Assembly: GCA_949299195.1 (NCBI GenBank)
Contig: CASFZN010000018.1
Location: forward strand, 352,149 to 416,148
Length of the DNA: 64,000 nucleotides
Direction of reading: 5' to 3'
From: an uncultured bacterium
Lineage (GTDB): Bacteria > Bacillota_I > Bacilli_A > RFN20 > CAG-826
Part shown: positions 2,595 through 60,240 of the stretch, piece by piece
Numbering within the stretch: position 1 is the stretch's first letter
Layout of the letters: each line of letters starts with the position of its first letter
Position numbers and translations under genes: made by a program
The notes under the pieces: generated by a model
Told to the model about the DNA's origin: nothing
Database searches by the model: none
What the model saw: the letters and a program-made list of their open reading frames with translations, nothing else

Positions 2595-2622
2595 AAAAAG
2601 TTTCCACGTGGAAACTTTTTTT
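2595..2622. terminator. intrinsic terminator, perfect palindrome AAAAAGTTTCCACGTGGAAACTTTTT (copy 1 of repeated family)
   Basis: 26-nt perfect palindrome with A-run/T-run arms, downstream of 2526 stop. Confidence 0.6.
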
Positions 2623-2881
2623 ATTGATAATAATCGCTTTTTAAAAAATTAGTTATATTTAAAAATAAAATATATAAAACTATTAAAAATTTTACTAAGA
2701 AAAATTAAAGATTATTTAGTCAAAATATAAGAAATTCAAAATAATGAAATATCCCATATTTTTCATGTTTTATAGTAAAAATCTTATTGATTTTTTCACT
2801 TTCTTTTTATATATTATTAACCGACACTAATCTAAAAAATTAAAGTCCCGGTAAGATTTTATATTTTAGGAGGATAGTGAG

Positions 2882-3340
2882 ATGAATAAAGAAACAACAA
2901 GTTTAAAGAAGGAAGAGATTGTCCGTAAATGGTATGTCGTTGACGCAACTAATCAACCTTTAGGTAGATTAGCTACTCAAATCGCTACTTATTTAATGGG
3001 AAAAGAAAAACCATCTTGGACACCAAACCAAGACTGTGGTGATTACATCATTGTAGTCAACTGTGATAAGGTTAAATTATCCAGTTCTAAGAAATTAGAA
3101 AACAAAAAATACTACAATGTTAGTGGTTATAACGGCGGTTTAAGAACAAGAAGTTTAGAGGTTATGCTTGAAAAATATCCTGAAGAAATGTTTAGAAGAG
3201 TCGTTTGGGGTATGATTCCAAAAGGCAGACTCGGAAGACAAATGATCAAAAAATTATTTGTTTACCGTGACGCTGAACATAAGCATGAAGCTCAAAAACC
3301 AGAGGTATTAACTTTCTCAAACTTAGGAGGTAAAAACTAA
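2882..3340 (+). CDS. rplM: 50S ribosomal protein L13
   Basis: '[21 protein letters not shown]', RBS ttaggagga; 152 aa. Confidence 0.95.
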
Positions 3341-3732
3341 TGGCTAAGAAAACTGCATTTTATGCAACTGGTAGAAGAAAATCCAGCATCGCAAAAGTCT
3401 ATTTAACAGAAGGCACAGGAAAAATTATTGTTAACGATAAAGATGTTAACGAATATTTCCCACACGCAACATTAGTCTTAGACTTAAAACAACCTCTTAC
3501 ATTATTAGGTGTTGAAGCTAAATATGATGTAAAAGCATACGTCCTTGGTGGCGGATTCTCCGGACAAACTGGTGCTTTAAGACTTGGTATTGCTAGAGCT
3601 TTACTCGAAGCTGGTGAAGATAGAGCAACCTTAAAAGTTCATGGTATGCTTACTCGTAACCCAAGAAGTAAAGAAAGAAAGAAATACGGTCTCAAAAAAG
3701 CAAGAAGAGCTCCTCAATTCTCAAAACGTTAA
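3340..3732 (+). CDS. rpsI: 30S ribosomal protein S9
   Basis: C-terminus '[25 protein letters not shown]'; TAATG stop/start overlap with rplM; RBS aggaggt. Confidence 0.95.
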
Positions 3733-3751
3733 AATATTTATTCAAACTATG

Positions 3752-3783
3752 GAAGCATTCTCAAAGAATGCTTCTTTTTTTAT
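3752..3783 (+). terminator. intrinsic terminator after rpsI
   Basis: GAAGCATTCtcaaaGAATGCTTC + T7. Confidence 0.7.
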
Positions 3784-3977
3784 CTGAAATTAAAAACTCG
3801 TTTTAACAACTTGAACAAACAAGTTTATTATTTATAATAAATTTGTAATAAGGAAATTAACGTTTTGTCTTTTAATGTTTTTGATAAAAATTCTAGATTA
3901 AAAGAGATAATTAGAGAGAAAATACTTATTAAAGTTAATTAAAAGATATTTTAAAAATAATAAAAGAGGTAAAAAGA

Positions 3978-4349
3978 ATGAAAATAGTAGGCAATATATT
4001 TTGGTTTATATTTGGAGGAGCTATTTGGGCATTAGTTTCTTTACTAATTGGAGTTTTATGCTGTATCACCATCATTTTAATTCCGGTAGGAATAAAAATG
4101 TTTCATTTTGCAGGTTTTATAGTCGCTCCTTTTGGAAAACACGCTGAATATAATAAAGGAAATGCTGGGAAACTTGTTATTAATATTATTTGGTTAGTTC
4201 TTTTTGGATGGGAAACTATTATTTCCTATGCTTTAACGGGAGTAATTTTGTGTTGTACCATCATTCTTATTCCTTTTGGAATTCAATATTTTAAAACTAT
4301 TCCTTTCCTTACTCTTCCATTGGGGACAACTTTCGTTAAAGATAACTAA
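3978..4349 (+). CDS. YccF-like inner membrane protein (internally duplicated DUF307-type repeat)
   Basis: two repeats of '...LCC(I/T)TIILIP(V/F)GI...' separated by a loop; 123 aa. Confidence 0.55.
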   Translation: MKIVGNIFWFIFGGAIWALVSLLIGVLCCITIILIPVGIKMFHFAGFIVAPFGKHAEYNKGNAGKLVINIIWLVLFGWETIISYALTGVILCCTIILIPFGIQYFKTIPFLTLPLGTTFVKDN

Positions 4350-4408
4350 TAATTTAAAAATTAGAAATTAATTATATATCCTTTAATAAAGTATAATTTA
4401 ATTTATAA

Positions 4409-6694: not shown

Positions 6695-6707
6695 AAATAG
6701 TAGACTT

Positions 6708-10576: not shown

Positions 10577-10653
<77 letters not shown>

Positions 10654-10855: not shown

Positions 10856-10880
10856 AACACGATAATTATCGTGTTTTTTA
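10856..10880 (+). terminator. intrinsic terminator after tRNA cluster
   Basis: AACACGATAattATCGTGTT + T6. Confidence 0.6.
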
Positions 10881-12415: not shown

Positions 12416-12440
12416 AAAAAGTTTCTATGTGGAAACTTTT
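12416..12440. terminator. degenerate copy of the CACGTG palindrome terminator (GTTTCTATGTGGAAAC)
   Basis: aaaaaGTTTCtatgtgGAAACtttt; downstream of minus-strand PHP gene. Confidence 0.45.
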
Positions 12441-12494: not shown

Positions 12495-12513
12495 AGTTTC
12501 CACGTGGAAATCA
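12495..12513. terminator. copy of CACGTG palindrome terminator (AGTTTCCACGTGGAAAT), terminator of minus-strand PHP gene
   Basis: palindrome followed on minus strand by T-rich run. Confidence 0.55.
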
Positions 12514-15542: not shown

Positions 15543-16850
15543 CTAATCTTTAAGTGCTAATATTGGACATACATAGATATCTTCATTATATAAATAAGAT
15601 TTATTTAAGTTAGCAACTAAAATAAAGAATCTTTTAAAACGATATCCTCTTTTTTCAGCAATATCTTTTTTTACCTTTAAGACTTTTTTAACACTTTCTT
15701 CAATGTCTTCTTTATTTAGAATAATATCTGCTCCAATATATTCATTAGTAATGTTAGATTTAAATACAATATCAAGTCCATTAAATAAATAATCTTGATA
15801 GTTATATAAATTAAATTCTTCATTATTTAATAGATATAATTTTAAATCTTTAATAGTTAAGCTTTTAAGCAAACTATCAAAGATATCTTTTAATATCGGA
15901 GTATTAATCTCATCTTTTAATAATTCAAGGGTGTAAACATTAATAGAAGTATCAAAATAACGTTTCTTTTGTACTTGTTTAATCTTGGTATATTTATTTA
16001 AAAAACTATATTCATCATCAGGAAGAGGACCAATATTATCAAATAAATATAATTTATTTAATAAATAGATATAACTATTAACCGTATTAGGTTCAATTTG
16101 ATAGTTTTCATTATTATAAATATCATCAATTAAATACGCATTAGAACATAAACTACATTCATTTCTTGCTAAAGCTCGCATAACTCTAGAAATAGAAGAG
16201 ATATTAATTAATGGATTATCAGCCTTTTTAAGTCGAGGTTCGATACTAATATAGTAATTTAATAAAAATTTATGAATTTCTTCTTCACTTAATTCTTTAT
16301 TTAAATTGGTATAAGGAAAAGAACCTCTAAAAATAAGATCAATAAAAATATCTGTTCCATTTAAATTCCCTAAATTATCAGAAATAACGTAGTTTGAATG
16401 TAATATTTCGTTTAGGGAAATTGTTCCATTACTATGACCTGCTTCATAGTTTGATAAACCAATCATTTGGATCCTTTTAAAGAAGGATTCATCGATATCT
16501 TTATATGGTTTTTTAATTTTAGGAAGATAGGAAGAGGTTAATAAATAGTGGTAACCTTTCTTTAAAATTAAATCTTTATTTTGATTTAAAAAATCATATA
16601 TTTCGAATTTTTGTTGAAATTCATCAATAAAATAAATGTTTGAACCATTATTTAAAGTGGGGTTAAGTAAGATATCTAATCCCTTTTCGTTAATGTCTTC
16701 AATTGTGATTATGTTTGGCTTTAAAAAAAGTGCGGCATCAGTTTTCCCAACTGCTAAGGGTCCTTCTAAAATTACCACCGGAAATTTAATGACGTTTTCT
16801 TTTAAGACTTTGTCAATATATCTCGGAACTCTTCGCTTATTTCCGTCCAT
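15543..16850 (-). CDS. AAA+ ATPase of the AAA_14/DUF4143 family (copy 1)
   Basis: Walker A 'GPLAVGKT', Walker B-like 'IYFIDEFQ'; 435 aa; paralogous architecture to 49029..50282. Confidence 0.55.
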   Translation of the reverse strand: MDGNKRRVPRYIDKVLKENVIKFPVVILEGPLAVGKTDAALFLKPNIITIEDINEKGLDILLNPTLNNGSNIYFIDEFQQKFEIYDFLNQNKDLILKKGYHYLLTSSYLPKIKKPYKDIDESFFKRIQMIGLSNYEAGHSNGTISLNEILHSNYVISDNLGNLNGTDIFIDLIFRGSFPYTNLNKELSEEEIHKFLLNYYISIEPRLKKADNPLINISSISRVMRALARNECSLCSNAYLIDDIYNNENYQIEPNTVNSYIYLLNKLYLFDNIGPLPDDEYSFLNKYTKIKQVQKKRYFDTSINVYTLELLKDEINTPILKDIFDSLLKSLTIKDLKLYLLNNEEFNLYNYQDYLFNGLDIVFKSNITNEYIGADIILNKEDIEESVKKVLKVKKDIAEKRGYRFKRFFILVANLNKSYLYNEDIYVCPILALKD

Positions 16851-23667: not shown

Positions 23668-23696
23668 ACATCCACAACTTGTGGATGTTTTTTTTA
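23668..23696 (+). terminator. intrinsic terminator after lipoprotein gene
   Basis: CATCCACAActtGTGGATG + T9. Confidence 0.7.
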
Positions 23697-23717: not shown

Positions 23718-23735
23718 AGTTTCCGCGCGGAAACT
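23718..23735. repeat. variant copy of the palindrome family (AGTTTCCGCGCGGAAACT)
   Basis: 18-nt perfect palindrome with CGCGCG core in place of CACGTG. Confidence 0.5.
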
Positions 23736-23869
23736 TTGTAAAATATTTAACGCTTACTTTAATACTTAGTAAGAAATAAAGTAAGCATTAAAATTAATGC
23801 AAGAATCTGTTTATTTTATTTTTTCGTTTCTCTATAATATTTTTTGATTTAGAAAAAGAAGGTTTTTAT

Positions 23870-30206: not shown

Positions 30207-30235
30207 TCTTAATCTATAATTATTTTTGTAGATAA

Positions 30236-30330
30236 AGTTATGGGGGCTTGTGATACAGGCTGAGATAAAAGTAGTTACTTTTGACCATTTAACCTGATCT
30301 AGGTAATTCTAGCGTAGGTAAAACTCTTTT
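30236..30330 (+). promoter_or_regulatory. TPP (thiamine pyrophosphate) riboswitch aptamer
   Basis: tgGGGGcttgtgataCAGGCTGAGAtaaa...ttgACCatttAACCTGATCTaGGtAATtCtAGCGTAGGtAAaa matches the THI-element consensus (CUGAGA, ACCUGAUCU, AGCGUAGG). Confidence 0.8.
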
Positions 30331-30379
30331 TTATTGGATAAAACTAATTAAATAGTAGTCCTTAAAAATAATTAAAGAA

Positions 30380-30444: not shown

Positions 30445-31569
30445 ATGATAGATGAAATTAAAAAAGAAAATGATATTACTGATAATTCTTCGACAACAGT
30501 ATCGAATAAAAAGTTTGATATTTATCGAGGAATTATAGGAATAGTTTTACTATTGGCAACTTACATATTTTTAGTTACTGATGGTTTTACGCTTTCAACT
30601 TTAAATGAAGAAGAAGTCACTCTTTCTTTATTTGATGCAATATTTGGAAATAGTGAATTAAAAATAGGATTAAATCCAATTGGATTAACTAGTTTTATTT
30701 TAATTTCTTGTGCAACTTTGTTATTTATTGTTGGATTTATTTTTAAAATAATAGGAAATAAAAAAGCATCAAACAGCTTATTTATTTCTTCATCAATTAC
30801 ATTATTTCTAGGATATATTTTCTATTTAGCAATTATTTATACATTTTATTATGTAGTTCCAGGAGCTAGTGAGATTATACCTTCTGAATATGGGATATAT
30901 TTTGTTACTCCATCAATGATAATTTATTCGGTAATTATCGCAATTTCTTTAATTATGATTTTAGCTTCTATTGAAAGAAAAGATGGCAGTAAATTTAAGG
31001 TAAAAGAGATTTCAGAATTAGCAATGATGGTTGCTTTAGCAATAGTTTTAGATCAATTTGTAAAAATTCCAATTGGTTCTACCGGAGGAAGTATTAACTT
31101 TTCCGCTTTTCCTTTAATGATATATGGGATTAGACATGGCTTTCTTAAAGGAATATTAGCTAGTTCAATCATTTTTGGAATTATTACGAATTTAATAGAT
31201 GGTTATGGTCTTTTATGTTATCCATTTGACTATTTAATTGCCTTTTTAGGATATGGGTCTAGTGGCTTATTCTATTACATTTTTAAGTCCACTATTTTTA
31301 AGAATAAATCGAGCGAAAATGACAATTTAATTTTGATTATTATCTCTTTAATTTTAGGAGCAATCACCTTATTTATTATAAGAATGATTGGTTCAACCAT
31401 GTCTTCGATGATTCTTTGGGAATATGAACTTGGCGCTGCTTTACTTTATAACATTTTATATGTTGGTCCTAGTGCCTTGGGATGTTTAGTAATTTCATTA
31501 CTTTTATCTCCTGTTATCAATATGATTAATAAAAGGCAAAAAACTTCTTATTTAGAAAAATTAGCATAA
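30445..31569 (+). CDS. TPP-riboswitch-controlled polytopic membrane protein; C-terminal half resembles an ECF-transporter S-component (ThiT-like), putative thiamine/precursor transporter
   Basis: 374 aa, about 10 TM helices; second half 'MMVALAIVLDQFVKIPIGSTGGSINFSAFPLMIYGIRHGFLKGILAS' S-component-like; directly downstream of riboswitch. Confidence 0.5.
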   Translation: MIDEIKKENDITDNSSTTVSNKKFDIYRGIIGIVLLLATYIFLVTDGFTLSTLNEEEVTLSLFDAIFGNSELKIGLNPIGLTSFILISCATLLFIVGFIFKIIGNKKASNSLFISSSITLFLGYIFYLAIIYTFYYVVPGASEIIPSEYGIYFVTPSMIIYSVIIAISLIMILASIERKDGSKFKVKEISELAMMVALAIVLDQFVKIPIGSTGGSINFSAFPLMIYGIRHGFLKGILASSIIFGIITNLIDGYGLLCYPFDYLIAFLGYGSSGLFYYIFKSTIFKNKSSENDNLILIIISLILGAITLFIIRMIGSTMSSMILWEYELGAALLYNILYVGPSALGCLVISLLLSPVINMINKRQKTSYLEKLA

Positions 31570-39104: not shown

Positions 39105-39773
39105 TTATTCCCCACTATTTTCATCAATATTTGATAAATTATTGGTGTTATAGAAGGAAGATAGATCCATTTCTTCAAGTTTTGCGCTAAATAAACTCTT
39201 AGATAATTTTTTAATATATAGTTTTCTAGCAATATAAGCTTGAGTAACAACAAGATAATAAATTGTACCCACTACTAAGGTTAAGAAGATGAAATAGTTA
39301 AATATTTTTTCATCGGTAAATGGCTCTGGAGTTAACCAAACCCACGAATCAAAGTTAGATCCAAATGGAGGATAATACTTAACACTAGAAAAATCTAATA
39401 TATATAATAAGGATGCAATTCCAGTTTCTCTATCAAAGATAGATTCTAACCAATTTCCATAAATTGAGTGGTAAATGATATATAAAATTAAACAAGTTAA
39501 TAAAATAATAAATGGTGCAATTGATTGTTTATAAAATCTTTCAAGAGATTTTTGATAAGCAATAGTTTTAAATTCTTCTGGAGTTTTAATTATCCTAGAA
39601 ACAACAAGTTTTCCCATGTCTTTATCAACTGCTTTAGCTTGTTTTTTCATGGTGTATCTAATTAAGTTTCCTAATAAGCCAATTAAGACAAATAAAAATA
39701 AAAGTACCGCAATTATTACTAAAATAACTTTCCACGTGGAAACTTTTGCATCAAAAATGATAAAATTAAACAT
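39105..39773 (-). CDS. hypothetical membrane protein; translationally coupled (TAATG) to upstream gene; contains a copy of the CACGTG palindrome in its 5' coding region
   Basis: RBS aaaaggaggga inside upstream gene's 3' end; stop/start overlap TAATG; 'DAKVSTWKV' encoded by ACTTTCCACGTGGAAACT. Confidence 0.45.
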   Translation of the reverse strand: MFNFIIFDAKVSTWKVILVIIAVLLFLFVLIGLLGNLIRYTMKKQAKAVDKDMGKLVVSRIIKTPEEFKTIAYQKSLERFYKQSIAPFIILLTCLILYIIYHSIYGNWLESIFDRETGIASLLYILDFSSVKYYPPFGSNFDSWVWLTPEPFTDEKIFNYFIFLTLVVGTIYYLVVTQAYIARKLYIKKLSKSLFSAKLEEMDLSSFYNTNNLSNIDENSGE

Positions 39774-41432: not shown

Positions 41433-43570
41433 ATGAATTTAAAAACCTTACTCAACGATAAACAATACGAAGCTGTAACTTCTTCATTTAAATATAATAG
41501 AATTATAGCTGGAGCAGGAAGTGGTAAAACCCGTGTTTTAACCTACCGTCTTGCACATTTAATTAATGATAAAAATATTGATCCTTATAACCTTTTAGCA
41601 ATTACTTTTACTAATAAAGTTGCAAAAGAAATGTTAAATAGAACCGAAGAATTACTCGGAAACATCGATATTAGTAGTTTAAAAATATCTACCTTCCACT
41701 CTTTTTGTAGTTATTTTTTAAGAAACGAAATCTATCACATCAACTTTCCTAGATCTTTTGTAATTATTGATGATAATGAAAGTGAAAACATGATTTATTA
41801 TTCCTTTACTAGTTTAGGTCATGAGATTAAAAAAGGAGATACCTTAGTTAAATCCACCATTAGATTTATTGCTAAAAATAAAACTAAAGGCCTTCTTCCT
41901 AGCGATATCAAAGAAGAAGATTTAGTTAGTGAAGAAATGAAAATCATGTATGAAGCTTTTAAAGAATATGAAAAAAATAAAGTTAGAAGTTATGCTTTAG
42001 ATTTTGATGATTTACTTATTTATACCGCAATATTTTAAGAGAATTTAGTGACGTAAAAGAAAAATATAATACTCGCTTTAAAGAGATTTTAGTCGATGAA
42101 TTCCAAGATACAAACGATTTACAGTTTAAACTTTTAACTCTTTTAGTAGGAAAAGACACAGGGCTTTATGTTGTAGGAGATCCTGATCAAACTATCTATA
42201 CCTGGAGAGGCGCTAATTTAAGAGTTATTTTAGATGTAGAAAAATATTTTAGGGGCTTACAAACTTTTATTTTAGACGAAAACTATCGTTCAACTAAAAA
42301 TATTTTAACCGCTGCTAATAAGCTTATTATTCATAATGCTGAAAGGGTAAAAAAAGATTTATTTACTAAAAACGAAAGTCGAGAAGAAGTAAGCTTTTTT
42401 ACAGCCCAAACTGATTTTGAAGAAGCTAGAAAAGTCGTTCAAAAAATACGTGAATTAACTGTAAAAAACGATGCAAAATATTCGGAAATTGCCATTCTTT
42501 ATCGATCGGCATATCTTTCTCGTCCTTTCGAACAAATTTTAATGAAAGAAAGAATTCCATATCGCGTTTATTCAGGAACAAAATTCTATGATAGAAGAGA
42601 AGTTAAAGATGTTTTAGCCTATCTTTCTTTATTAACTAATCCCAAAAACGATGTAGCTTTTGAAAGAGTTTATAACGTTCCTAAAAGAGGAATTGGAGAT
42701 GTTTCGTATGCAAAATTTAAACAAGAAGCATATGAATTAAACTTAAATTTATATCAATACGCTTTAGATTTATATAAATATGATTCTGAGGTTAGTAAAA
42801 AATCTCAAAATGCCTTATCTACCTTTGTTTTAAAATTAGAAAAAGCTAATGATTTACTTGAAGGAGAACACACTTCTCAAGAATTTTCTGGCATAATGCT
42901 CGACTTTTTAAATGACATTAAATATTTTGACTATCTTCAAGAAAATGAAGAAGATGGCGATGATAGAGCTTTAAACGTCAGATCTTTAATTAGCGATATT
43001 GCTAATACAGTAACTGGAAAAAATGCGATAAGTATCGAAGAATATTTACAAAACGTTACTTTATTAACTTCTCAAGATGATATTGTTAATGATGGTGATT
43101 CAATCACTTTAATGACCTGCCATACTGCTAAGGGTTTAGAGTTTAACTATGTTTTCGTAGTTGGATTAAATAAAGATGTTTTCCCAAATTATCGTGCTCT
43201 TCAAGAAGGAAAAGAAAGAGAAGAGGAAGAAAGAAGATTAGCCTATGTTGCCTTTACTCGTGCTAGAAAAATACTCTATTTATCTTGTAATTTAGGGCAT
43301 TCATTTATTAGTGGCACCACTAATGAAGTTTCTCAATTTGTTATTGAAGCCGGATTATCGCTTAAACCTAAAAACTCCTTTATCAAGGTAGGAAAAGAAA
43401 ATTTATATTCTTTCGATTTTAATAAATTTATGGAGGAAAAGAAAAAAATCGAAGAAGAAGAGCGAAAAGAAAGAGTTATAGGAACTTCATTTAAAAATAA
43501 TATAAAATGGAGTGTAGGCGATTTGATAAATCATAAAACTTTTGGAAAAGGAAAAATCAATAAATTATAA
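41433..43570 (+). pseudogene. UvrD/PcrA-type helicase paralog (pcrA-1) disrupted by a -1 frameshift in the T4 run at 42033-42036
   Basis: N-terminal 201 aa with 'IAGAGSGKTRVLTYR', stop at 42036; frame +2 continues 'REFSDVKEKYNTRFKEILVDEFQDTN...VVGDPDQTIYTWRGAN...ENYRST...TCHTAKGLEF...LAYVAFTRARK'; colinear and about 65-70% identical to intact pcrA at 50515. Confidence 0.7.
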
Positions 43571-49028: not shown

Positions 49029-50282
49029 TTATAAATCTAAAGGATTATCTTTAAGTAAAAAATCAAATAAATTTAATATTAAATAATTATCTTCATTATA
49101 TGAAGTTAAATAACCTTGTTTTACTATTAATATTTTTTTAGCTCCATTATCTAAATATTTAAATGGACGCAGTTCTTGCTCCAATTTATCTTTATTAGTT
49201 GCATCTAGTGAAACTTGAATGTAATAGGTTTTATTATTCTTTTTAGCTTCGAAATCAATTTCTAATTCTTTTCTAAAACTTTTCTGATTTTTATCTTTTT
49301 GATTAATGATAATACTACCTAAATTAACTTCATAACCTTGAATTATTAATTCGTTATAAATTAGATTTTCAAGTAAATGCGTTTCTTCTAATTGATTAAA
49401 ATTTAAAATAGCATTTCTAATTCCTAAATCTTTAAAATAATATTTTTTATTCGAATTAATGAATTTTTTGCCTTTTAAATCTTTACGAATAATTTTTTCT
49501 ATTAAAAAAGAATCTTCCAAAGTATCAATATATTTTTCTATAAGATAAGTTGATATTTTTTTGTTTTTTAAACTCTTAAAAGTGTTAGAAATTTTTAAAG
49601 CTGAAAATCTAGACCCGATTGAAGAAGAAAGAACAAGCACTAATTCGTTAAAATCAATTTTATTTCTAATATTATTTTTTATTATTAAATCTTTTAAATA
49701 AGTTTCTTTATAAACGCTTATTAAATATTCTTTTTTATCATTTTCATTATTAAATTCAATTAATTTTGGGAGCCCACCATAAGTTATGTAATCTTTATAA
49801 GCATCTTCTAATTTTTGATGAGAATTCTTATAGAATTCTTTAAAAGATAATGGGTAAATTTTAATTTCGACACCTCTATCATTAAACTCGGTTAAGATAT
49901 CTTTTGAAAGAAATTTTGCATTGCTGCCTGATACAAAAACATTAAGATTAGAAATGTGATAAAAACCTAATAAAACTGAAGTAAAATTATCTACTAATTG
50001 AATTTCATCGAGTATTAAATAATAAATTAGATTATCTTTAATATTATTTAATACAAAATTATATAAATTATCTGAGTTTAAGAGATTTTTATTCTTATAA
50101 TCATCAAATTCTATTCTAATGATATGGTCTTGAAAGATACCACTTTTAATTAAGTAGTTATAAAAGAGTTCGTTTAATAATGTAGATTTTCCTGACCTTC
50201 TTAAACCTGTAACTATTTTAATTCTATTATCGTTAATTTTACTTATTATTTTTTCTAAATAATTATCACGATTAAATATCAT
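49029..50282 (-). CDS. AAA+ ATPase of AAA_14/DUF4143 family (copy 2); start revised to ATG with AAGGA RBS
   Basis: 'IVTGLRRSGKSTLL' Walker A, 'YLILDEIQL' Walker B; DUF4143-like C-terminal region; ORF-track N-terminal extension (to 50393) is hydrophobic junk overlapping palindromic sites. Confidence 0.65.
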   Translation of the reverse strand: MIFNRDNYLEKIISKINDNRIKIVTGLRRSGKSTLLNELFYNYLIKSGIFQDHIIRIEFDDYKNKNLLNSDNLYNFVLNNIKDNLIYYLILDEIQLVDNFTSVLLGFYHISNLNVFVSGSNAKFLSKDILTEFNDRGVEIKIYPLSFKEFYKNSHQKLEDAYKDYITYGGLPKLIEFNNENDKKEYLISVYKETYLKDLIIKNNIRNKIDFNELVLVLSSSIGSRFSALKISNTFKSLKNKKISTYLIEKYIDTLEDSFLIEKIIRKDLKGKKFINSNKKYYFKDLGIRNAILNFNQLEETHLLENLIYNELIIQGYEVNLGSIIINQKDKNQKSFRKELEIDFEAKKNNKTYYIQVSLDATNKDKLEQELRPFKYLDNGAKKILIVKQGYLTSYNEDNYLILNLFDFLLKDNPLDL

Positions 50283-50303
50283 ATATGATCCTTTTTTATA
50301 ATA

Positions 50304-50317
50304 TTTGCGTCTATACG
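50304..50317. promoter_or_regulatory. 14-bp near-palindrome TGCGTCTATACGCA (operator-like), site 1
   Basis: in divergent intergenic region between DUF4143 ATPase and pcrA. Confidence 0.35.
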
Positions 50318-50379
50318 CATTTTTTCTAAAAATATTATACAATATATAGACTAAAATAAAAAGTATTTTTAAAATTTTT

Positions 50380-50393
50380 GCGTATATACGCAT
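50380..50393. promoter_or_regulatory. 14-bp perfect palindrome TGCGTATATACGCA (operator-like), site 2
   Basis: 76 bp from site 1 (centre to centre), same intergenic region. Confidence 0.35.
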
Positions 50394-50514
50394 TTATTTT
50401 AAAAACCATTAATTATTAATATAAAATAAGATAACTTTTTATTACTAAATTTATACTAAAAAAGTTATTAGATTTAATATAAATAACAACCTAAATTTGA
50501 TAAAATATTTAGGT

Positions 50515-52731
50515 ATGAATTTTGAACGAGAACTAAATGATAAACAATATCTTGCAGTAACAACGAAAGAAAAATATAACCGTATAATTGCTGGTGCAGG
50601 TAGTGGAAAAACTAGAGTATTAACATATCGATTGGCCTATTTATTAGAAAAAAGAAATATTGACCCATTTAATCTTTTAGCGATTACTTTTACAAATAAA
50701 GCTGCTAAAGAGATGAAAAATAGAACAATTGATTTATTACCAACTTATAATTTAAAAAACTTACAGATTTCAACTTTTCATTCTTTCTGTAATTATTTAT
50801 TAAGAAGAGAAATTAAAGTTTTGGGATTTCCACAATCTTTTTCGATTTTAGATGAAAGCGATACCGAATTATTATTAAAAAATATTGCCGAAGAGCTAGG
50901 ATATGAAAAAAACGGACCAACTTTTGATTATGCTTTAAAATTTATAAGTGCAAGCAAAACAAAAGGGAAACTACCTGGTGATATAAAGGAAGAATTTTTG
51001 AATGATTTATCAAAAAAAGCTTTAACAATGTTTAAAGAATATGAAAAAAGAAAGAACGAACAATTCTCTTTAGATTTTGATGATTTACTCATATATACAG
51101 TACTGATTTTATCTTCTTACCCTAATATAAAAGAAAAATATAATAATCGATTTAAAGAAATCTTGGTTGATGAATTTCAAGATACAAATGATATTCAATT
51201 TAAATTATTAACTTTACTTGCTGGAGAAAATACATCTATTTATGTAGTTGGTGATCCTGATCAAACAATTTATACTTGGAGAGGAGCTAATCAAAAAGTT
51301 ATTTTAGATTTTGATAAATATTTTTCTCCGCTTAACACAATAATATTAAACGAAAATTATCGTTCAACAAGCGCTATTTTAAATGTTGCAAATACTTTGA
51401 TTGCTAAAAATGTCGAAAGGGTAAAAAAAGATTTATTTACAAATAATTCTAAAGGTGTTGATGTAATTTGCCATGAAGAATTTTCTGATCAAGAAGAAGC
51501 TAGGTGGGTAGTAAAGAAAATAAACGATTTAAAAAAGATTAAAAACGTAAAATTAAAAGATATCGTTATTTTATATAGAAGTTCATATATTTCAAAAACA
51601 TTTGAAAAAGTCTTGATGGAAAATAGAATTTCTTATCGAGTATATGGCGGGCTTAAATTCTATGATAGAAAAGAAATTAAAGATTCTTTGGCTTATTTTT
51701 ATTTATTATTAAATGATTTAGATGACATTTCCTTTTTAAGAATCGTAAATGTTCCTCGTAGAAGTATAGGAGATGTATCATTATCAACGCTCAAAAAAGA
51801 AGCTAGAAATGAAAATTTATCATTATATAAATATTCTAAAGATATAGATAAATATAATTCATTACTTTCGCCACGTGTTAAAAACTCGCTGTTTAATTTA
51901 GTGCAAATTATTGAAGAATATAAAATAAAAGTTAATGATAAAAATATATCTTATTCAGAAGTCTTAGATGCTTATTTAAAAAAGCTTGGCTATTATGATT
52001 ATTTAATTAATGATGATGATTCGGACGGGGAAAGAATTGCTAACGTTAAAACATTAATTGATGATATTCGAACTTATTTAAAAGAAAATCCTGAATCTTC
52101 TTTAGATGAATATATGCAAAATATTACTTTATTAACTTCTCAAGATGCGATAATTGATAACGAAAACACTTTAACTTTAATGACTGTACATACAGCAAAA
52201 GGTTTAGAGTTTGATTATGTTTTTGTTGTTGGGTTTGAAGATACAGTGTTCCCTTCTTATAAATCTGTTTCTGAAAACGGCAATAAAGGATTAGAAGAAG
52301 AAAGAAGGCTTGCCTATGTTGCTTTTACAAGGGCTAAAAAAGAATTATATATAACTTATAATAAGGGATATTCTTATATTGCAAAAACTTCACACATTCC
52401 TTCAAGATTTATTAAAGAATCTGGAATATATAGCATTGATTCAAGTTTTGAAAGAGATTTAAAACGTTATGATTCTTCATCAACTGTTTATAAAATTAAT
52501 TTTAATAGCAAAGAATCTTCTAGAAGAGTAAGTGAAGGAAGAAATTCAACTATTATTTCTTATCAAGTTAATAAAAATAATAATTGGGCGGTAGGCGATA
52601 ATTTAACTCATGATGCTTTTGGAGAAGGAAAAGTAATCGGTACTGATGGAGACGTCATTATTGTTGATTTTGCAAATTTCGGTGTTAAAAAAATGCTGGC
52701 TACACATCATATGTTGCATAAAAAGGAATAA
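50515..52731 (+). CDS. pcrA: ATP-dependent DNA helicase PcrA (intact)
   Basis: 'IAGAGSGKTRVLTYR', 'VDEFQDTND', 'VVGDPDQTIYTWRGA', 'ENYRST', 'TVHTAKGLEF', 'LAYVAFTRAKK'; followed by ligA as in Bacillus; start chosen by alignment with paralog (MNFERELNDKQY). Confidence 0.9.
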   Translation: MNFERELNDKQYLAVTTKEKYNRIIAGAGSGKTRVLTYRLAYLLEKRNIDPFNLLAITFTNKAAKEMKNRTIDLLPTYNLKNLQISTFHSFCNYLLRREIKVLGFPQSFSILDESDTELLLKNIAEELGYEKNGPTFDYALKFISASKTKGKLPGDIKEEFLNDLSKKALTMFKEYEKRKNEQFSLDFDDLLIYTVLILSSYPNIKEKYNNRFKEILVDEFQDTNDIQFKLLTLLAGENTSIYVVGDPDQTIYTWRGANQKVILDFDKYFSPLNTIILNENYRSTSAILNVANTLIAKNVERVKKDLFTNNSKGVDVICHEEFSDQEEARWVVKKINDLKKIKNVKLKDIVILYRSSYISKTFEKVLMENRISYRVYGGLKFYDRKEIKDSLAYFYLLLNDLDDISFLRIVNVPRRSIGDVSLSTLKKEARNENLSLYKYSKDIDKYNSLLSPRVKNSLFNLVQIIEEYKIKVNDKNISYSEVLDAYLKKLGYYDYLINDDDSDGERIANVKTLIDDIRTYLKENPESSLDEYMQNITLLTSQDAIIDNENTLTLMTVHTAKGLEFDYVFVVGFEDTVFPSYKSVSENGNKGLEEERRLAYVAFTRAKKELYITYNKGYSYIAKTSHIPSRFIKESGIYSIDSSFERDLKRYDSSSTVYKINFNSKESSRRVSEGRNSTIISYQVNKNNNWAVGDNLTHDAFGEGKVIGTDGDVIIVDFANFGVKKMLATHHMLHKKE

Positions 52732-55085: not shown

Positions 55086-55107
55086 TTGGATAAATGAGGA
55101 GAATACT

Positions 55108-56610: not shown

Positions 56611-56613
56611 TTT

Positions 56614-58038
56614 ATGAATTTTGAAGCAATTATTGGATTAGAAATCCACGTTGAAATGAAAACTCATACTAAAATGTTTTCAAGTGCCCCAATTAAATTT
56701 AAAGCTGAACCTAATACTAATATCACTTATTTAGATTTAGCATATCCAGGAAGCTTACCAAGAGTTAATAAAAATGCGGTAATTAACGCAATTAGAGTAT
56801 GTAATGCTTTACATATGGAAATTGATGATACGCTTTATTTTGACCGTAAAAACTATTTCTATGCTGACCTTCCTAAGGGATATCAAATTACTCAACAATT
56901 TAGACCTATTGGACAAAAAGGTTATTTAGAAATCGATGTTGACGGTGAGAAAAAGCGCATAAAAGTCGAAAGACTTCATATGGAAGAAGATACAGCAATG
57001 CAACACCACTATAGCGATTACACACTTTTAGACTATAACCGTGCAGGCATTCCGCTTGTTGAAATAGTTTCTTATCCTGAAATAAGAAACGGTAAAGAAG
57101 CTAGAAAATATGTCGAAAAAATTAAAGAAATCGTTACATATTTAGATGTTTCTGATGGAAAGATGGAAAACGGCTCATTAAGATGTGACGTCAATATCTC
57201 TTTACGTCCTTATGGCAGTGATAAATTCGGAACAAAGGTAGAAGTTAAAAACCTTAACTCAACCGCAAATATTGAAGCTGCAATTGATTTTGAAATGTCT
57301 CGTCAAGCTGCTTGTTTACTTAAAGGTATTGAAATTCATCAAGAAACTCGTAGATTTGATGAACTTAAAAAAGAAACAGTTTTAATGAGAACAAAAACTG
57401 AAGCTGCAGATTATAAATATTTTAGCGAAGGCAATATTCCTCCAATCTTTATTGGGAAAGATTTTATTAATCGTGCTATCGAAACTTCAAATGAATTATA
57501 TGATCAAAAATTAGAAAGATTCTTAAATGAATATAAATTAAATGAAGTTGATGCAAGGATTTTATTATCTTCTAAAGAATTATCAATTTATTATGATGAA
57601 GCAGTTAAAAATAATGATAATTATCAACAAATCGCTAACTTTATAATCTCTGAAGTTTTAGGTTATTTAAATAAAAATGAAATCGAAATTTCAAACTTTA
57701 ATGTTAAACCAGACGATATTTCCGATTTAGTTAACCTTTTAATCAAAAAGGAAATTAACTCTAAACAAGGAAAAGATATTTTTGCAAAAATGATTGAAAC
57801 AAATAAATCACCATTAGTTTTAAAAGAAGAAATGGGAGCAACAATTATCTCTGATCCTGAAAAAATTAGAACTGATATTATCGAAATTATAAAAGAAAAT
57901 CCAACTCTTCCAGATGATTACAAAAACGGTAAAACTAGAGCTCAAGGATTCGTAATGGGATTACTCATGAAAAAGAATAAGGGTAAAGTTGATCCAATTT
58001 TAGCAAACAAACTCATCGTTGAAGAGTTATTAAAATAA
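56614..58038 (+). CDS. gatB: Asp-tRNA(Asn)/Glu-tRNA(Gln) amidotransferase subunit B
   Basis: 'IIGLEIHVEM', 'DLAYPGSLP', 'RLHMEEDTA'; 474 aa. Confidence 0.95.
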   Translation: MNFEAIIGLEIHVEMKTHTKMFSSAPIKFKAEPNTNITYLDLAYPGSLPRVNKNAVINAIRVCNALHMEIDDTLYFDRKNYFYADLPKGYQITQQFRPIGQKGYLEIDVDGEKKRIKVERLHMEEDTAMQHHYSDYTLLDYNRAGIPLVEIVSYPEIRNGKEARKYVEKIKEIVTYLDVSDGKMENGSLRCDVNISLRPYGSDKFGTKVEVKNLNSTANIEAAIDFEMSRQAACLLKGIEIHQETRRFDELKKETVLMRTKTEAADYKYFSEGNIPPIFIGKDFINRAIETSNELYDQKLERFLNEYKLNEVDARILLSSKELSIYYDEAVKNNDNYQQIANFIISEVLGYLNKNEIEISNFNVKPDDISDLVNLLIKKEINSKQGKDIFAKMIETNKSPLVLKEEMGATIISDPEKIRTDIIEIIKENPTLPDDYKNGKTRAQGFVMGLLMKKNKGKVDPILANKLIVEELLK

Positions 58039-58050
58039 GAGGAAGTGGTT

Positions 58051-59394
58051 ATGAAAAACATCGATATTAACGAAGAATCATTATCAAAAGATTTATATTC
58101 AAGATTATCTAAAAATTATCTTAAAGACGTTAAAAATACCATCATCAGAAACGCTTTAAATAATACTAACATCACCGATTTAGCTTACGATGCATCAAAA
58201 CAAAGTGAAACCAATTTTGTTTTCTCTAATGAAATCAAAACTATGGCTGTTTGTAATCAAGAAAGAAGCGGTAGATGTTGGATTTTTGCTGGATTAAACG
58301 TTTTAAGAGAAATCGTTGGCAAGAAATTAAACATTAAAAACTTTGAATTATCCCAAAATTATGTCGCTTTATATGATAAATTAGAAAAATGCAATTACAT
58401 GATGACTTCAATCATTTCATTATTAAATAATGATCCATCAGAAAGAGTCTTCATGCATGTTTTAACTAATGGGATTCAAGACGGCGGACAATGGGATATG
58501 TTTAAAAATCTTGTCAAAAAGTATGGAATTGTTCCTCAAAGTGTCTTTAAAGAAACTTTCCAATCAAGCAACACCCATTTATTAACAACTGTTTTAAATT
58601 CTTATATTAGAAATTTTGCTTTTGAAGCCAAAAAATTAAAAGAAACTCGTAAAGTAAAAGAAATTTCTATTTTAAAAGAAAAATATTTAACCAATATTTA
58701 TAATGCAATTTTAAATTCTTTTGGCGTTCCACCAACAAAATTTAATTTCGAATATTACGATATTGAAGATAAATATCATATTGAAAAAGATTTAACTCCA
58801 AAAGCATTCTTTGATAAATATATTGGTAAAACTATCGATGAATACGTATCAATTATTAATTCTCCAACTGAAGATAAGCCATTCAATAAAGTTTATACAA
58901 TCGATTATCTTAATAATGTTATTGAAGGTGATCCAATTAAACACTTAAATTTACCAATGGATAGAGTTAAAGAATTAGTTGAAAAACAAATTTCTAATAA
59001 CGAAGTTGTTTGGTTTGGTAGCGATGTTGGTTTTTATAGAGGGAAAGAATATTGGGATGATGAAAGTTTAAGTTTACAAGGTCTTTTCCAAATTGATACT
59101 AAATGGGATAAAGCAGGAATGTTAGATTTCCACGCCTCAGTTATGAATCATGCGATGGTTATCACAGGTTTTAATAAAGTTGATGGCGTTGTTAATCGTT
59201 ATAAGATTCAAAATTCTTGGGGAAGTAAGGTCGGTACTAACGGATATTTTGTAATGAGCGACTCATGGTTTGATTCTTTTGTTTATCAAGTTGTTATCTT
59301 AAAGAAATATTTAACAAAAGAAGAATTAGACGCCTATAATAAAGAACCAATTCATTTAGATCCTTGGGATCCAATGGGAACTTTAGCCGATTAA
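58051..59394 (+). CDS. pepC: aminopeptidase C (bleomycin hydrolase-like C1B cysteine peptidase)
   Basis: active-site 'QERSGRCWIFAGLN', 'HAMVITG', 'QNSWG'; RBS aagaggaag 7 nt before ATG 58051. Confidence 0.85.
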   Translation: MKNIDINEESLSKDLYSRLSKNYLKDVKNTIIRNALNNTNITDLAYDASKQSETNFVFSNEIKTMAVCNQERSGRCWIFAGLNVLREIVGKKLNIKNFELSQNYVALYDKLEKCNYMMTSIISLLNNDPSERVFMHVLTNGIQDGGQWDMFKNLVKKYGIVPQSVFKETFQSSNTHLLTTVLNSYIRNFAFEAKKLKETRKVKEISILKEKYLTNIYNAILNSFGVPPTKFNFEYYDIEDKYHIEKDLTPKAFFDKYIGKTIDEYVSIINSPTEDKPFNKVYTIDYLNNVIEGDPIKHLNLPMDRVKELVEKQISNNEVVWFGSDVGFYRGKEYWDDESLSLQGLFQIDTKWDKAGMLDFHASVMNHAMVITGFNKVDGVVNRYKIQNSWGSKVGTNGYFVMSDSWFDSFVYQVVILKKYLTKEELDAYNKEPIHLDPWDPMGTLAD

Positions 59395-59408
59395 TTATAT
59401 AGAATAGT

Positions 59409-60188
59409 ATGGAAAAGAAATTTACTTTAATTACTGGAGCTTCATCGGGTTTAGGAAAAGAATTAGCAAAACTTTATGCTAAGGATAAAAATAACCTTCT
59501 TTTAGTTGCGCGAAATTTAGATAGTTTAAATAAATTAAAAGAAGAAGTTGACTCTTTGTATAAAGTAGAAGTAGATGTTTTATCAAAGGACTTATCTAAT
59601 CTCAATGAAGTTAAAGAAATTAAAGATTATGTTCTTAAAAAGGGCTATTTTATCAACAACTTAGTAAATAATGCCGGCTTTGGCGATACTAAAGATTTTG
59701 TTGATATGGACATTGATTTTAATATCAAATTAAACGAAGTTAACATTAACGCTTTAATGTATTTAACTCATTTTTTCTTAAAAGACATGCTTAAAAATGA
59801 TGAAGGACACATTATAAATGTTGCATCTGTTGCTGGTTTTTTACCTTCTCCGCACATGTCAACCTATCACGCTTCAAAAGCCTATATTATTTATTTAACT
59901 GAAGCAATTTCTGAAGAAATTAAAAAGAGTAAAGTTAAGGTCTTGGCAGTATGTCCTGGTCCTTTTGAGTCAAATTTTGTTAATGTTGCTCATAATCACA
60001 AGACTTTTGAAACTATTAAACCTATGACTACTGAATATGTTGCTAAAAAAACATATAAAGTATCCTTAAAAGGTAAAAAAATAGTCTATGTTTTACCTTT
60101 TAAATCTAAACTACTTTCAATCGCTCCTAGATTCTTTACAAGAAAGTTTGTAAATTATGTAGCTGGTAAAACATTAGAAGAAAAGTAA
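59409..60188 (+). CDS. short-chain dehydrogenase/reductase (SDR)
   Basis: 'ITGASSGLGKELA' cofactor motif, 'NNAG', catalytic 'YHASKAY'. Confidence 0.8.
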   Translation: MEKKFTLITGASSGLGKELAKLYAKDKNNLLLVARNLDSLNKLKEEVDSLYKVEVDVLSKDLSNLNEVKEIKDYVLKKGYFINNLVNNAGFGDTKDFVDMDIDFNIKLNEVNINALMYLTHFFLKDMLKNDEGHIINVASVAGFLPSPHMSTYHASKAYIIYLTEAISEEIKKSKVKVLAVCPGPFESNFVNVAHNHKTFETIKPMTTEYVAKKTYKVSLKGKKIVYVLPFKSKLLSIAPRFFTRKFVNYVAGKTLEEK

Positions 60189-60212
60189 GCATTAAAAACT
60201 ATTATGTTATTT

Positions 60213-60240
60213 AAAAGTTTCCACGTGGAAACTTTTTTTA
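60213..60240. terminator. intrinsic terminator, perfect palindrome AAAAGTTTCCACGTGGAAACTTTT + T-run (copy of repeated family)
   Basis: 24-nt perfect palindrome 25 nt after SDR stop. Confidence 0.7.

What the first reader, a model, noticed from the sequence alone, without database searches (positions are those of the whole stretch)
2595..60240. Recurrent identical palindromic terminator AAAAGTTTCCACGTGGAAACTTTT (6 copies)
Near-identical perfect palindromes with a CACGTG core occur at 2595-2620, 12416-12440 (variant TATGTG), 12495-12513, 23718-23735 (variant CGCGCG), 39727-39745 (inside a CDS) and 60213-60236. Most sit right after stop codons with A/T-run flanks, so they can act as bidirectional intrinsic terminators. 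Exact reuse of one 18-24-nt hairpin at many loci resembles a REP/BIME-like small repeat family, or a dual-use protein-binding site, rather than independent terminators.
Basis: seen in the sequence. Interest (0 to 1): 0.5.

Follow-up and report, generated by a model that had tools for sequence, protein, structure and literature searches.

The report
Variant parS centromere sites inside terminators
The repeated palindrome GTTTCCACGTGGAAAC is most likely a variant of parS, the bacterial chromosome "centromere" site bound by ParB. Several copies are built into the hairpins that end genes, so one short sequence probably serves both chromosome segregation and transcription termination. This organism's own ParB gene has not been seen.

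Summary
A seventh lies about 600 bp upstream of the window.

Four of the seven sites are good intrinsic terminators in the correct orientation. Three are not: one follows a separate genuine terminator and has no T-run, one lies inside a coding sequence, and one is a weak hairpin. All three still keep the 16-bp core, so the core is the conserved unit, not the terminator.

The core's inner 12 bp match the Pseudomonas and Myxococcus parS (TGTTCCACGTGGAACA). Only the outer TG/CA is replaced by GT/AC.

- In public genomes, 49 of 74 loci holding the exact 18-mer have a parA or parB gene within 1.5 kb.
- Those ParBs carry Lys where canonical ParBs have the parS-contacting Arg173 (33 of 34).
- Two related Negativicutes-type ParBs fit the same pattern. 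The Arg type sits among four canonical parS. The Lys type has the variant site upstream of parA.

Two things weaken the call. No ParB gene was seen in the 84 kb available for this organism. Genus-level relatives carry unrelated terminator hairpins at the same positions, so the sites are species-specific.

Verdict: probably variant parS sites doubling as terminators, confidence about 0.55.

The parts
2595..2620 (.). Site S1. Perfect core GTTTCCACGTGGAAAC (2600-2615) inside the 26-bp palindrome AAAAAGTTTCCACGTGGAAACTTTTT, followed by a T-run. It lies 73 nt after the stop of the Zn-ribbon gene and 266 nt before rplM. Read as a variant parS plus a bidirectional terminator.
   Evidence: -12.2 kcal/mol, z = -4.6. 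Conserved in three other strains. Relatives carry the unrelated hairpin TTTTAGCGAGAAATCGCTAAAA at this position.
12417..12440 (-). Site S2. Degenerate core GTTTCTATGTGGAAAC (12421-12436). On the minus strand it forms a hairpin followed by TTTTTCTTT, 91 nt after the PHP-domain gene's stop and 10 nt upstream of the -35 of the pcp promoter-like site.
   Evidence: -7.5 kcal/mol, z = -3.8. Strain L113 has GTTTCCACATGGAAAC here, so the site is drifting between strains.
12496..12511 (.). Site S3. Core GTTTCCACGTGGAAAT, 16 nt after the PHP-domain gene's stop and 75 bp from S2. It is not a convincing terminator.
   Evidence: -5.4 kcal/mol, z = -0.9; the T-run is 7 nt away. L113 has GTTTCCAGGTGGAAAT. 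Paired sites 35-190 bp apart are common next to parA in other phyla.
23718..23735 (.). Site S4. Symmetric variant AGTTTCCGCGCGGAAACT, in which both half-sites carry A to G. It has no T-run on either strand and lies 30 nt after a separate genuine terminator (23668-23688 plus T8) and 135 nt before the amylase-family gene.
39728..39743 (.). Site S5. Core CTTTCCACGTGGAAAC inside the 5' end (codons 10-15, AKVSTWKV) of a membrane-protein ORF that is translationally coupled to the upstream ORF. It cannot be an ordinary terminator.
   Evidence: z = -0.7.
60213..60236 (.). Site S6. Perfect core inside the 24-bp palindrome AAAAGTTTCCACGTGGAAACTTTT followed by a T-run, 28 nt after the stop of a short-chain dehydrogenase gene. 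Read as a variant parS plus a terminator.
   Evidence: (-10.4 kcal/mol). Identical in another sample's contig, L082.

Best explanation
The 16-bp palindromes are parS-type centromere sites of a non-canonical class. They match the Pseudomonas/Myxococcus parS TGTTCCACGTGGAACA, except that the outer TG/CA is replaced by GT/AC. The inferred mechanism is that a ParB-family CTP-dependent clamp recognises them through its helix-turn-helix. That ParB would carry Lys at the position of Caulobacter Arg173, the residue that reads the outer guanine. It would load at these sites, spread along the DNA, and organise or segregate the origin-proximal part of the chromosome.

In this AT-rich genome most copies sit just past gene ends. 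There the palindrome, extended by a few complementary flanking bases and followed by a T-run, also forms the stem of a Rho-independent terminator. One sequence would then do two jobs.

Shown here: the sites and their statistics; the hairpin and T-run anatomy; the link between this exact sequence and parAB operons in other genomes; the Lys/Arg covariation; and canonical parS sites inside terminator-like hairpins in another Firmicute. Inferred: that this organism encodes such a ParB, that the ParB binds these sites, and that termination actually occurs.
For: 1. The sites are real and non-random: 6 found against 0.07 expected, and a seventh upstream.
2. The inner 12 bp TTCCACGTGGAA are identical to P. 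aeruginosa parS2/3 and M. xanthus parS (PMC4368675; PMC7022226).
3. The exact 18-mer occurs in only 74 stretches among 185,579 species genomes. Of these, 49 have a ParA and/or ParB ORF within 1.5 kb, often with the site directly upstream of the parA start. Pfam confirms ParB_N + HTH_ParB + ParB_C, and ParA. An independent metagenome scan gives the same picture.
4. ParBs beside the variant site have Lys at the Arg173 position in 33 of 34 cases, in 3 of 3 from the metagenome set, and in L067. Arg173 contacts the outer G and is reported as invariant in ParB orthologues (PMC7383237).
5. Two related Negativicutes-type ParBs fit the pattern. L117 (Lys) lies in a dnaA…rsmG-parA-parB origin region with one variant site upstream of parA and no canonical parS. 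L116 (Arg, Phascolarctobacterium) has four perfect TGTTTCACGTGAAACA and no variant site. The 98 variant-bearing loci hold 147 variant sites and no canonical parS.
6. Three window sites keep the core without being terminators, and conservation stops at the 16-bp core.
7. There is a precedent for dual use. Two canonical parS in L116 are embedded in extended palindromes with T-runs right after genes. Flanks of the variant site in other phyla are palindromic far above chance, 60% at the first flanking position against 25% expected.
8. Gene context points to an origin-proximal position on the leading strand: the region follows ecfA-ecfA-ecfT-truA…rplM-rpsI, and GC skew is positive throughout.
Against: 1. 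No ParB, ParA or Noc gene occurs in the 84 kb of this genome that could be read. A search seeded with a Lys-type ParB did not recover this organism's ParB, so its existence and type are unknown.
2. The sites are not conserved beyond the species. Syntenic 20-kb regions of relatives with 75-91% L13 identity have no copies and, in four of the five loci, no CACGTG at all. Chromosomal parS positions are usually older than that.
3. Two sites (S2, S3) are drifting between strains that are 97% identical, so not every copy is under strong constraint.
4. Six of seven copies lie at 3' ends. That is also what a pure terminator family would show.
5. Distance to oriC and the genome-wide distribution could not be measured.
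Confidence: 0.55

Rival explanations
1. A family of intrinsic terminators and nothing more. One efficient hairpin has been reused at several gene ends, for example through gene conversion or template switching between palindromes. Its identity to a ParB site would be coincidence.
For: Four of seven copies are good hairpins with T-runs in the correct orientation after stop codons. Relatives have unrelated terminator hairpins at the same positions, so these are terminator slots. The flanks extend the stem with compensating bases, AAAAG/CTTTT against ATAGG/CCTAT. The sites are species-specific.
Against: Three copies keep the core where no terminator function is possible or needed. The other terminator-like hairpins in the window are almost all unique sequences; apart from the motif copies, only one small pair at 50306/50379 looks alike. 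In a terminator the stem sequence is free to vary, yet here 14-16 of 16 bases are fixed and the compensating variation begins only outside the core. A chance match to a 16-bp palindrome tied to parAB in other phyla is very unlikely.
Confidence: 0.2
2. A small mobile or self-propagating palindromic repeat, REP- or MITE-like, that recently spread through intergenic regions of this species. It may have originated from a parS.
For: The copies are species-specific, mostly extragenic and palindromic, with about 1 copy per 12 kb, and some are decaying.
Against: Similarity is confined to 16 bp. There are no shared flanks, and no terminal repeats or target duplications were noticed, although no systematic search was made. 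No RAYT/IS200-type transposase was noticed in the ORF translations and called-gene Pfam tables for the 84 kb, and no dedicated search was run. REPs are typically imperfect palindromes of 20-40 nt with a conserved 5' tetranucleotide and occur in hundreds of copies; genome-wide copy number could not be measured here.
Confidence: 0.12
3. The operator of an ordinary dimeric transcription factor, that is, a regulon motif.
For: It is a 16-bp perfect dyad. S2 lies 10 bp upstream of a strong -35/-10 match for pcp, and S4 lies about 100 bp upstream of the amylase-family gene's -10.
Against: Positions relative to downstream promoters are inconsistent, ranging from 45 to 549 nt, and one site is in a CDS. 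The flanking genes share no function: rplM, pcp, an amylase-family gene, an ABC transporter and galU. The sites hug stop codons, not start codons. The same sequence is tied to parAB elsewhere.
Confidence: 0.08

Closest known systems
Chromosomal parS of the ParABS system, especially the Pseudomonas/Myxococcus form TGTTCCACGTGGAACA (general consensus TGTTNCACGTGAAACA)
   Same: It is a 16-bp palindrome with a central CACGTG, and the inner 12 bp TTCCACGTGGAA are identical. Several copies cluster within tens of kb. In other genomes the same sequence sits directly upstream of parA-parB at the origin.
   Different: Positions 1-2 and 15-16 read GT…AC instead of TG…CA, which removes the G reported as invariant in all P. 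aeruginosa half-sites. The associated ParBs have Lys instead of Arg173. Here most copies are intergenic and double as terminator stems. This organism's ParB has not been seen.
Burkholderiales secondary-replicon (Bsr) parS variants, e.g. GTTTATGCGCATAAAC
   Same: These are also 16-bp palindromes with a T-rich GTTT…AAAC outer arm and a 6-bp core with a central CG. They illustrate ParB/parS pairs diverging in specificity.
   Different: The inner core differs (ATGCGCAT against CCACGTGG). Bsr systems belong to secondary replicons and plasmids of Burkholderiales, whereas the variant here accompanies origin-region parAB (L117).
Noc-binding site (NBS, TATTTCCCGGGAAATA) of Firmicutes
   Same: It shares the TTTCC…GGAAA arms. 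It is bound by a ParB paralogue whose specificity changed through a few HTH residues including position 173, and its sites are dispersed on the chromosome.
   Different: The NBS centre is CCCGGG, not CACGTG, and Noc has Gln173/Arg201 rather than Lys173. No Noc was found here. No NBS was found in L116 or L117; the window itself was not scanned with the NBS pattern.
Rho-independent terminators, and uptake-sequence pairs that double as terminators (Neisseria DUS, Haemophilus USS; recalled from general knowledge)
   Same: A short, sequence-specific DNA signal is placed as an inverted repeat just after genes, so that it also forms a terminator hairpin followed by a T-run.
   Different: Here a single palindromic protein-binding site forms the stem, not two inverted copies of an asymmetric uptake signal. 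Density is about 1 per 12 kb rather than about 1 per kb. No uptake sequence is known for this lineage.
REP/BIME elements
   Same: They are short extragenic palindromes present in several copies.
   Different: There is no conserved sequence outside 16 bp, no BIME-like composite organisation, and no RAYT was seen. Membership is not supported.

Membership tests
parS (ParB-binding centromere site) | A 16-bp palindrome related to TGTTNCACGTGNAACA | tested here: inconclusive
   12 of 16 bases match TGTTCCACGTGGAACA, with the inner 12 bp identical. All four mismatches fall on outer positions 1, 2, 15 and 16, including the G contacted by Arg173. The sites therefore fail a canonical search at 3 mismatches or fewer.
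parS (ParB-binding centromere site) | The same sequence is physically linked to parA-parB operons | tested here: met
   Tested in other genomes only. 49 of 74 loci have ParA or ParB within 1.5 kb, Pfam confirms the families, L117 lies in a dnaA…rsmG-parA-parB region, and no canonical parS occurs in 674 kb of such loci.
parS (ParB-binding centromere site) | The DNA-reading residues of the cognate ParB covary with the site | tested here: met
   Lys replaces Arg173 in 33 of 34 plus 3 of 3 ParBs and in L067. The Arg-type relative L116 has four canonical parS, and the Lys-type L117 has the variant. The role of Arg173 is taken from PMC7383237.
parS (ParB-binding centromere site) | A ParB is encoded in the same genome | tested here: inconclusive
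   tblastn with three ParBs, two ParAs and a Noc-like protein found nothing in the 84 kb available. The rest of the 426-kb scaffold and the MAG could not be read, and a database search did not recover it.
parS (ParB-binding centromere site) | Sites are concentrated in the origin-proximal part of the chromosome | not testable with these tools
   There is only indirect support. The region follows the ribosomal-protein/ecf/truA/rplM cluster, and GC skew is uniformly positive. The position of oriC is unknown.
parS (ParB-binding centromere site) | ParB binds the site (ChIP, EMSA) | not testable with these tools
   This needs an experiment.
Rho-independent terminator | A stable hairpin immediately followed by a U-run, downstream of a stop codon on the sense strand | tested here: met
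   Met for S0, S1, S2 (minus strand) and S6. Not met for S3, S4 and S5.
Rho-independent terminator | Transcript 3' ends map to the site | not testable with these tools
   No RNA data were available.
REP/BIME or MITE | A conserved element longer than the palindrome core, with conserved flanks, terminal repeats, target duplications or composite arrays | tested here: not met
   Flanks differ between copies and only the 16-bp core is shared. No terminal repeats or target duplications were seen by eye; this was not systematically searched.
REP/BIME or MITE | A cognate RAYT or transposase, and high genome-wide copy number | not testable with these tools
   None was noticed in the ORF translations and called-gene Pfam tables for the 84 kb.
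Noc-binding site | ATTTCCCGGGAAAT consensus together with a Noc protein | tested here: not met
   The core is CACGTG (or CGCGCG at S4), not CCCGGG. No Noc homologue was found.

The most novel reading that the evidence does not exclude
A previously undescribed specificity class of chromosomal ParB/parS exists in several phyla: Omnitrophota, Planctomycetota, an Elusimicrobia-like group, a Negativicutes lineage, and this genome-reduced gut Bacillus-class organism. In this class a natural Arg173-to-Lys change in the ParB recognition helix goes with a shift of the outer guanine in parS (TGTT… to GTTT…). In this organism a new set of such centromere sites arose recently by building them into terminator hairpins, so each site both loads ParB and ends transcription. 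That placement could also protect ParB loading sites from read-through RNA polymerase.
Probability: 0.4. Interest if true: 0.7.

Novelty: new variant of a known kind. Interest (0 to 1): 0.55.

Why it matters
If correct, the finding has four consequences.

1. It adds a natural, phylogenetically widespread example to the laboratory work on how ParB/Noc specificity is reprogrammed by a few helix-turn-helix residues. Here the change would be a single Arg-to-Lys switch paired with a defined change in the DNA site.
2. Genome scans that look for TGTTNCACGTGAAACA with three mismatches or fewer would miss the centromeres of whole lineages.
3. Centromere sites and intrinsic terminators could share one sequence. 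This bears on how ParB loading coexists with transcription, and on how new parS sites are born.
4. It offers an easy computational marker for origin-proximal DNA in poorly known, uncultured gut Bacilli.

If the organism turns out to lack ParB, the finding reduces to an unusual but minor case of terminator-hairpin reuse.

Tried and rejected
- Rfam at gathering thresholds found only four tRNAs and a TPP riboswitch, nothing at the sites.
- No canonical parS occurs in the window at 2 mismatches or fewer.
- The motif string (14-mer) is not in the searchable literature in a bacterial context. The 12-mer search led to the Pseudomonas and Myxococcus parS papers.
- The single genome-collection scan did not include this organism. 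It returned mostly Omnitrophota and Planctomycetia, and that result produced the ParB lead.
- The metagenome scan contained no relatives of this ~27% GC organism.
- I tried to find this organism's ParB with a Lys-type ParB query. Only Acidaminococcaceae-type proteins came back, none with this organism's AT-rich amino-acid bias or its 426-kb contig. A better query was not available, so the third protein search was left unused.
- One exact-protein look-up failed because of a wrong GTG start.
- The contig L067, labelled Acholeplasmataceae, is probably a mis-binned Negativicutes fragment. The 130-nt perfect palindrome at its end may be an assembly artefact.
- A DNA uptake sequence was considered and rejected: a single palindrome, low density, and no precedent in this lineage.
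- Chi sites and dif were rejected. Chi is asymmetric and dif is unique.
- A restriction-site artefact was rejected. CACGTG occurs six times in the window, four of them inside the motif.
- The 34-nt repeat next to S4 and S6 was examined as a possible BIME-like partner. It looks like an independent cre-like box.
Full report
**Observation**

The chance expectation is 0.07. All six have two mismatches or fewer, and the window has no hits at three or four mismatches, so the family is sharply bounded.

The window has about 27% GC, uses the standard bacterial genetic code, and carries housekeeping genes. These include rplM-rpsI, addBA, nrdDG, tsaEBD, asnS, pcrA-ligA-gatCAB.

Exact-protein look-ups place the window at about 352-416 kb of a 426-kb metagenomic scaffold, ENA ERZ16268187 scaffold_1. 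The nearest named relatives by ribosomal protein L13 are Candidatus Onthovivens, gut Bacilli, at 67-71% identity.

Extending the scaffold by 10 kb on each side reveals a seventh copy about 600 bp upstream of the window (L078 11836-11851) and none beyond that. Five of the six window sites are intergenic although 87% of the window is coding (P = 2e-4). Each intergenic site lies 16-92 nt from a stop codon.

**Are they terminators?**

Four copies look like good intrinsic terminators facing the right way:

| Site | Sequence | Folding energy |
|---|---|---|
| S0 (upstream copy) | AATAGGTTTCCACGTGGAAACCTATTTTTTT | -15.6 kcal/mol |
| S1 (2600) | core in AAAAAG…CTTTTT | -12.2 kcal/mol |
| S2 (12421, minus strand) | degenerate core | -7.5 kcal/mol |
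| S6 (60217) | core in AAAAG…CTTTT | -10.4 kcal/mol |

All four are followed by T-runs. In S0 the stem is extended by bases different from those in S1 and S6 (ATAGG/CCTAT against AAAAG/CTTTT). The flanks therefore co-vary to keep pairing, while the 16-bp core stays fixed.

In relatives with 86-91% L13 identity the orthologous 3' ends, after the ABC-transporter operon and upstream of rplM, carry unrelated hairpin terminators. These positions are therefore terminator slots.

Three copies cannot be explained this way:

- S3 (12496) folds no better than shuffled sequence, and its T-run is displaced.
- S4 (23719, GTTTCCGCGCGGAAAC) has no T-run on either strand and lies 30 nt after a separate textbook terminator, ACATCCACAACTTGTGGATGT followed by T8.
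- S5 (39728) is in codons 10-15 of a membrane-protein ORF whose ATG overlaps the preceding stop codon.

The other terminator-like hairpins in the window are almost all unique sequences. Apart from the motif copies, only one small pair, at 50306 and 50379, looks alike. What is conserved is the 16-bp core, not "a terminator".

**What the core is**

A scan of one genome per species (185,579 species) for the 18-mer AGTTTCCACGTGGAAACT found only 74 stretches, mostly Omnitrophota and Planctomycetia. In many of them the site sits immediately upstream of an ORF beginning M-x-K-x-I-A-I-x-N-Q-K-G-G, which is ParA.

Overall, 49 of 74 loci have a ParA and/or ParB ORF within 1.5 kb. Pfam confirms ParB_N + HTH_ParB + ParB_C, and ParA. 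A separate scan of JGI metagenomes with a 22-mer gave 24 loci with the same association.

The literature shows that the inner 12 bp, TTCCACGTGGAA, are identical to the perfect parS of Pseudomonas aeruginosa (TGTTCCACGTGGAACA) and of Myxococcus xanthus, which has 22 sites. The window motif differs only at the two outermost positions of each half-site, GT instead of TG. That removes the G reported as invariant in all P. aeruginosa half-sites. In the Caulobacter ParB-parS structure this G is read by Arg173 (PMC7383237).

**Covariation with the protein**

Aligned to the Myxococcus and Thermus ParB structures, the ParBs encoded next to the variant site have Lys at the Arg173 position. The motif is GKDK, GKSK or GMSK instead of GK[SEA]R. 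This holds in 33 of 34 cases, in 3 of 3 from the metagenome set, and in L067. Jalal et al. describe Arg173 as invariant among ParB orthologues and among parS-specific variants.

Among 120 homologues of the L067 ParB, the close relatives (81% identity or more) are Lys-type. Most of the 47-64% relatives, including Phascolarctobacterium and Acidaminococcus, are Arg-type. I fetched one locus of each type:

- The Lys-type locus L117 is a classical origin region: dnaN-dnaA, then rnpA-yidC-jag-mnmE-mnmG-rsmG-parA-parB. It has one variant site between rsmG and parA and no canonical parS.
- The Arg-type locus L116 (Phascolarctobacterium) has four perfect TGTTTCACGTGAAACA around parAB and no variant site.

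Across 98 variant-bearing loci (674 kb) there are 147 variant sites and no canonical parS. I take this as strong evidence that GTTTCCACGTGGAAAC is a genuine parS of a distinct specificity class. I found no paper that spells out this sequence. That search covers open-access text only.

**Dual use has a precedent**

Two of the four canonical parS sites in L116 are embedded in longer palindromes followed by T-runs just after genes: AGAGGA-parS-TCCTCTTTTT, and AAAAAGAGA-parS-TCTCTTTTT between convergent genes. In the 81 distinct variant sites from other phyla, the first three flanking positions are palindromic in 60%, 53% and 48% of cases, against 25% expected, and the flanking sequences vary. parS sites sitting in extended hairpins may therefore be a general, little-noticed habit. 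In a 27% GC genome such a hairpin followed by T's is automatically a terminator.

**What weakens the call for this window**

1. No ParA, ParB or Noc homologue occurs in the 84 kb I could read, nor in the relatives' 20-kb loci. I could not retrieve this organism's ParB. Some genome-reduced Bacilli lack ParB; this statement is from general knowledge and was not tested.
2. The sites are young. Strains with 97.2% DNA identity keep S0 and S1, but S2 and S3 differ between strains (GTTTCCACATGGAAAC and GTTTCCAGGTGGAAAT in L113). Relatives with 75-91% L13 identity have no copies in syntenic 20-kb regions, and four of those five loci have no CACGTG at all.
3. I cannot measure the distance to oriC. The ecfA-ecfA-ecfT-truA…rplM-rpsI context and the uniformly positive GC skew suggest an origin-proximal, leading-strand location. 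That is an inference from gene order in other Firmicutes.

A recent change or acquisition of ParB specificity followed by rapid birth of new sites would fit these facts. So would a self-propagating hairpin.

**Rivals**

- *Pure terminator family (0.20).* It explains the position and the T-runs. It does not explain the fixed core, the three non-terminator copies, or the identity to a ParB site.
- *REP/MITE-like element (0.12).* It fits the species specificity. However, similarity is confined to 16 bp, with no shared flanks, and no terminal repeats, target duplications or transposase noticed.
- *Ordinary transcription-factor operator (0.08).* It fits the dyad symmetry. It does not fit the inconsistent promoter distances, the unrelated flanking genes or the 3'-end bias.
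- *Noc-binding site.* Excluded by the centre of the motif.

**Verdict**

The best explanation is a cluster of non-canonical parS sites, four of seven built into terminator stems, at confidence 0.55. This is a new variant of a known kind.

The decisive test is simple and purely computational. Scan the rest of this MAG for a ParB, read its residue 173, and plot the motif against oriC.

Noticed in passing
window 23747-23791 and 60182-60307: A second repeat, AAAGTAAGC(A/G)TTAA, occurs as inverted pairs. One pair lies 12 nt downstream of S4 (23747 minus strand, 23778 plus strand). The other brackets S6 (60182 plus, overlapping the dehydrogenase stop codon; 60294 minus). A 27-nt stretch, CTTAGTAAGAAATAAAGTAAGCATTAA, is identical at both loci. 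The 23747 copy (AGTAAGCGTTAA) resembles the B. subtilis amyE cre/amyO box TGTAAGCGTTAACA (recalled from memory) and lies upstream of an alpha-amylase-family gene. It may be a CcpA-type operator rather than part of the parS element.
   Followed up: partly
window 10856-10875 and 60679-60698; L111 635-662: Another recurrent palindrome has the core ACGATAATTATCGT. AACACGATAATTATCGTGTT with a T-run follows the tRNA-Ile/Val/Thr cluster, and a half-degenerate copy lies upstream of the ABC/FtsX transporter gene. A relative carries GAAAAATACGATAATTATCGTATTTTTC. Its function is unknown; it could be a terminator or an operator.
   Followed up: partly
L116 3973-3988 and 7058-7073; L001-L074: Canonical parS sites of a Phascolarctobacterium genome are embedded in extended palindromes followed by T-runs right after genes. 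Flanks of the variant parS in other phyla are palindromic in 48-60% of cases at the first three positions, against 25% expected. parS sites inside hairpin or terminator contexts may be widespread.
   Followed up: partly
L005-L072 ParB ORFs; L117 10001-10984; L116 10001-10969: ParBs next to GTTTCCACGTGGAAAC carry Lys at the Caulobacter Arg173 position (GKDK, GKSK or GMSK). In 25 of 34 they also carry Lys at the Arg204 position (GHAK). The one exception is L070, a Spongiibacteraceae ParB with GKSR.
   Followed up: yes
window 41433-43570 versus 50497-52731: A second pcrA/UvrD-type helicase copy lies 9.07 kb upstream of the intact pcrA. It is 72-83% identical over the aligned DNA segments and is split into at least two ORFs (41433-42038 and 42542-43570), so it is probably a decaying paralogue.
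   Followed up: no
window 2822-2865; L110, L111 and L107 just upstream of rplM: A block of about 45 nt, CCGACACTAAT…AAATTAAAGTCCCGGTAAGATTTTA, just upstream of rplM is conserved across relatives whose other intergenic DNA no longer aligns. It is probably an L13 autoregulatory leader. It was not reported by Rfam at gathering threshold.
   Followed up: no
window 12421-12436 and 12496-12511 versus L113 19540-19555 and 19615-19630: The S2/S3 pair is decaying differently in different strains (CTATG in the window against CACATG in L113 at S2; CACGTG in the window against CAGGTG in L113 at S3). All three S2 changes are transitions, only the C8 and G9 changes lying in the central CpG (C6-to-T does not); the S3 change is a C-to-G transversion. 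One possibility is methyl-cytosine deamination at CACGTG.
   Followed up: no
L067 1-130; L025 about 1420-1520: In two Negativicutes-type contigs the variant parS sits at the centre of a much longer palindrome. In L067 it is perfect over 130 nt and lies at the contig end, so it may be an assembly artefact. L067 is labelled Acholeplasmataceae, but its ParB clusters with Acidaminococcaceae proteins, which suggests mis-binning.
   Followed up: partly
window 15543-16850 (-) and 49029-50393 (-): There are two paralogous AAA_14/DUF4143 ATPase genes on the minus strand in an otherwise plus-strand region. Relatives have fragments of the same family at variable positions (L111 5099-6238 and 11098-11670), which suggests a mobile or fast-turnover gene.
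   Followed up: no
window 30230-30338: A TPP riboswitch (Rfam RF00059, 67.8 bits) lies upstream of a multi-pass membrane protein (30445-31569), presumably a thiamine transporter.
   Followed up: no
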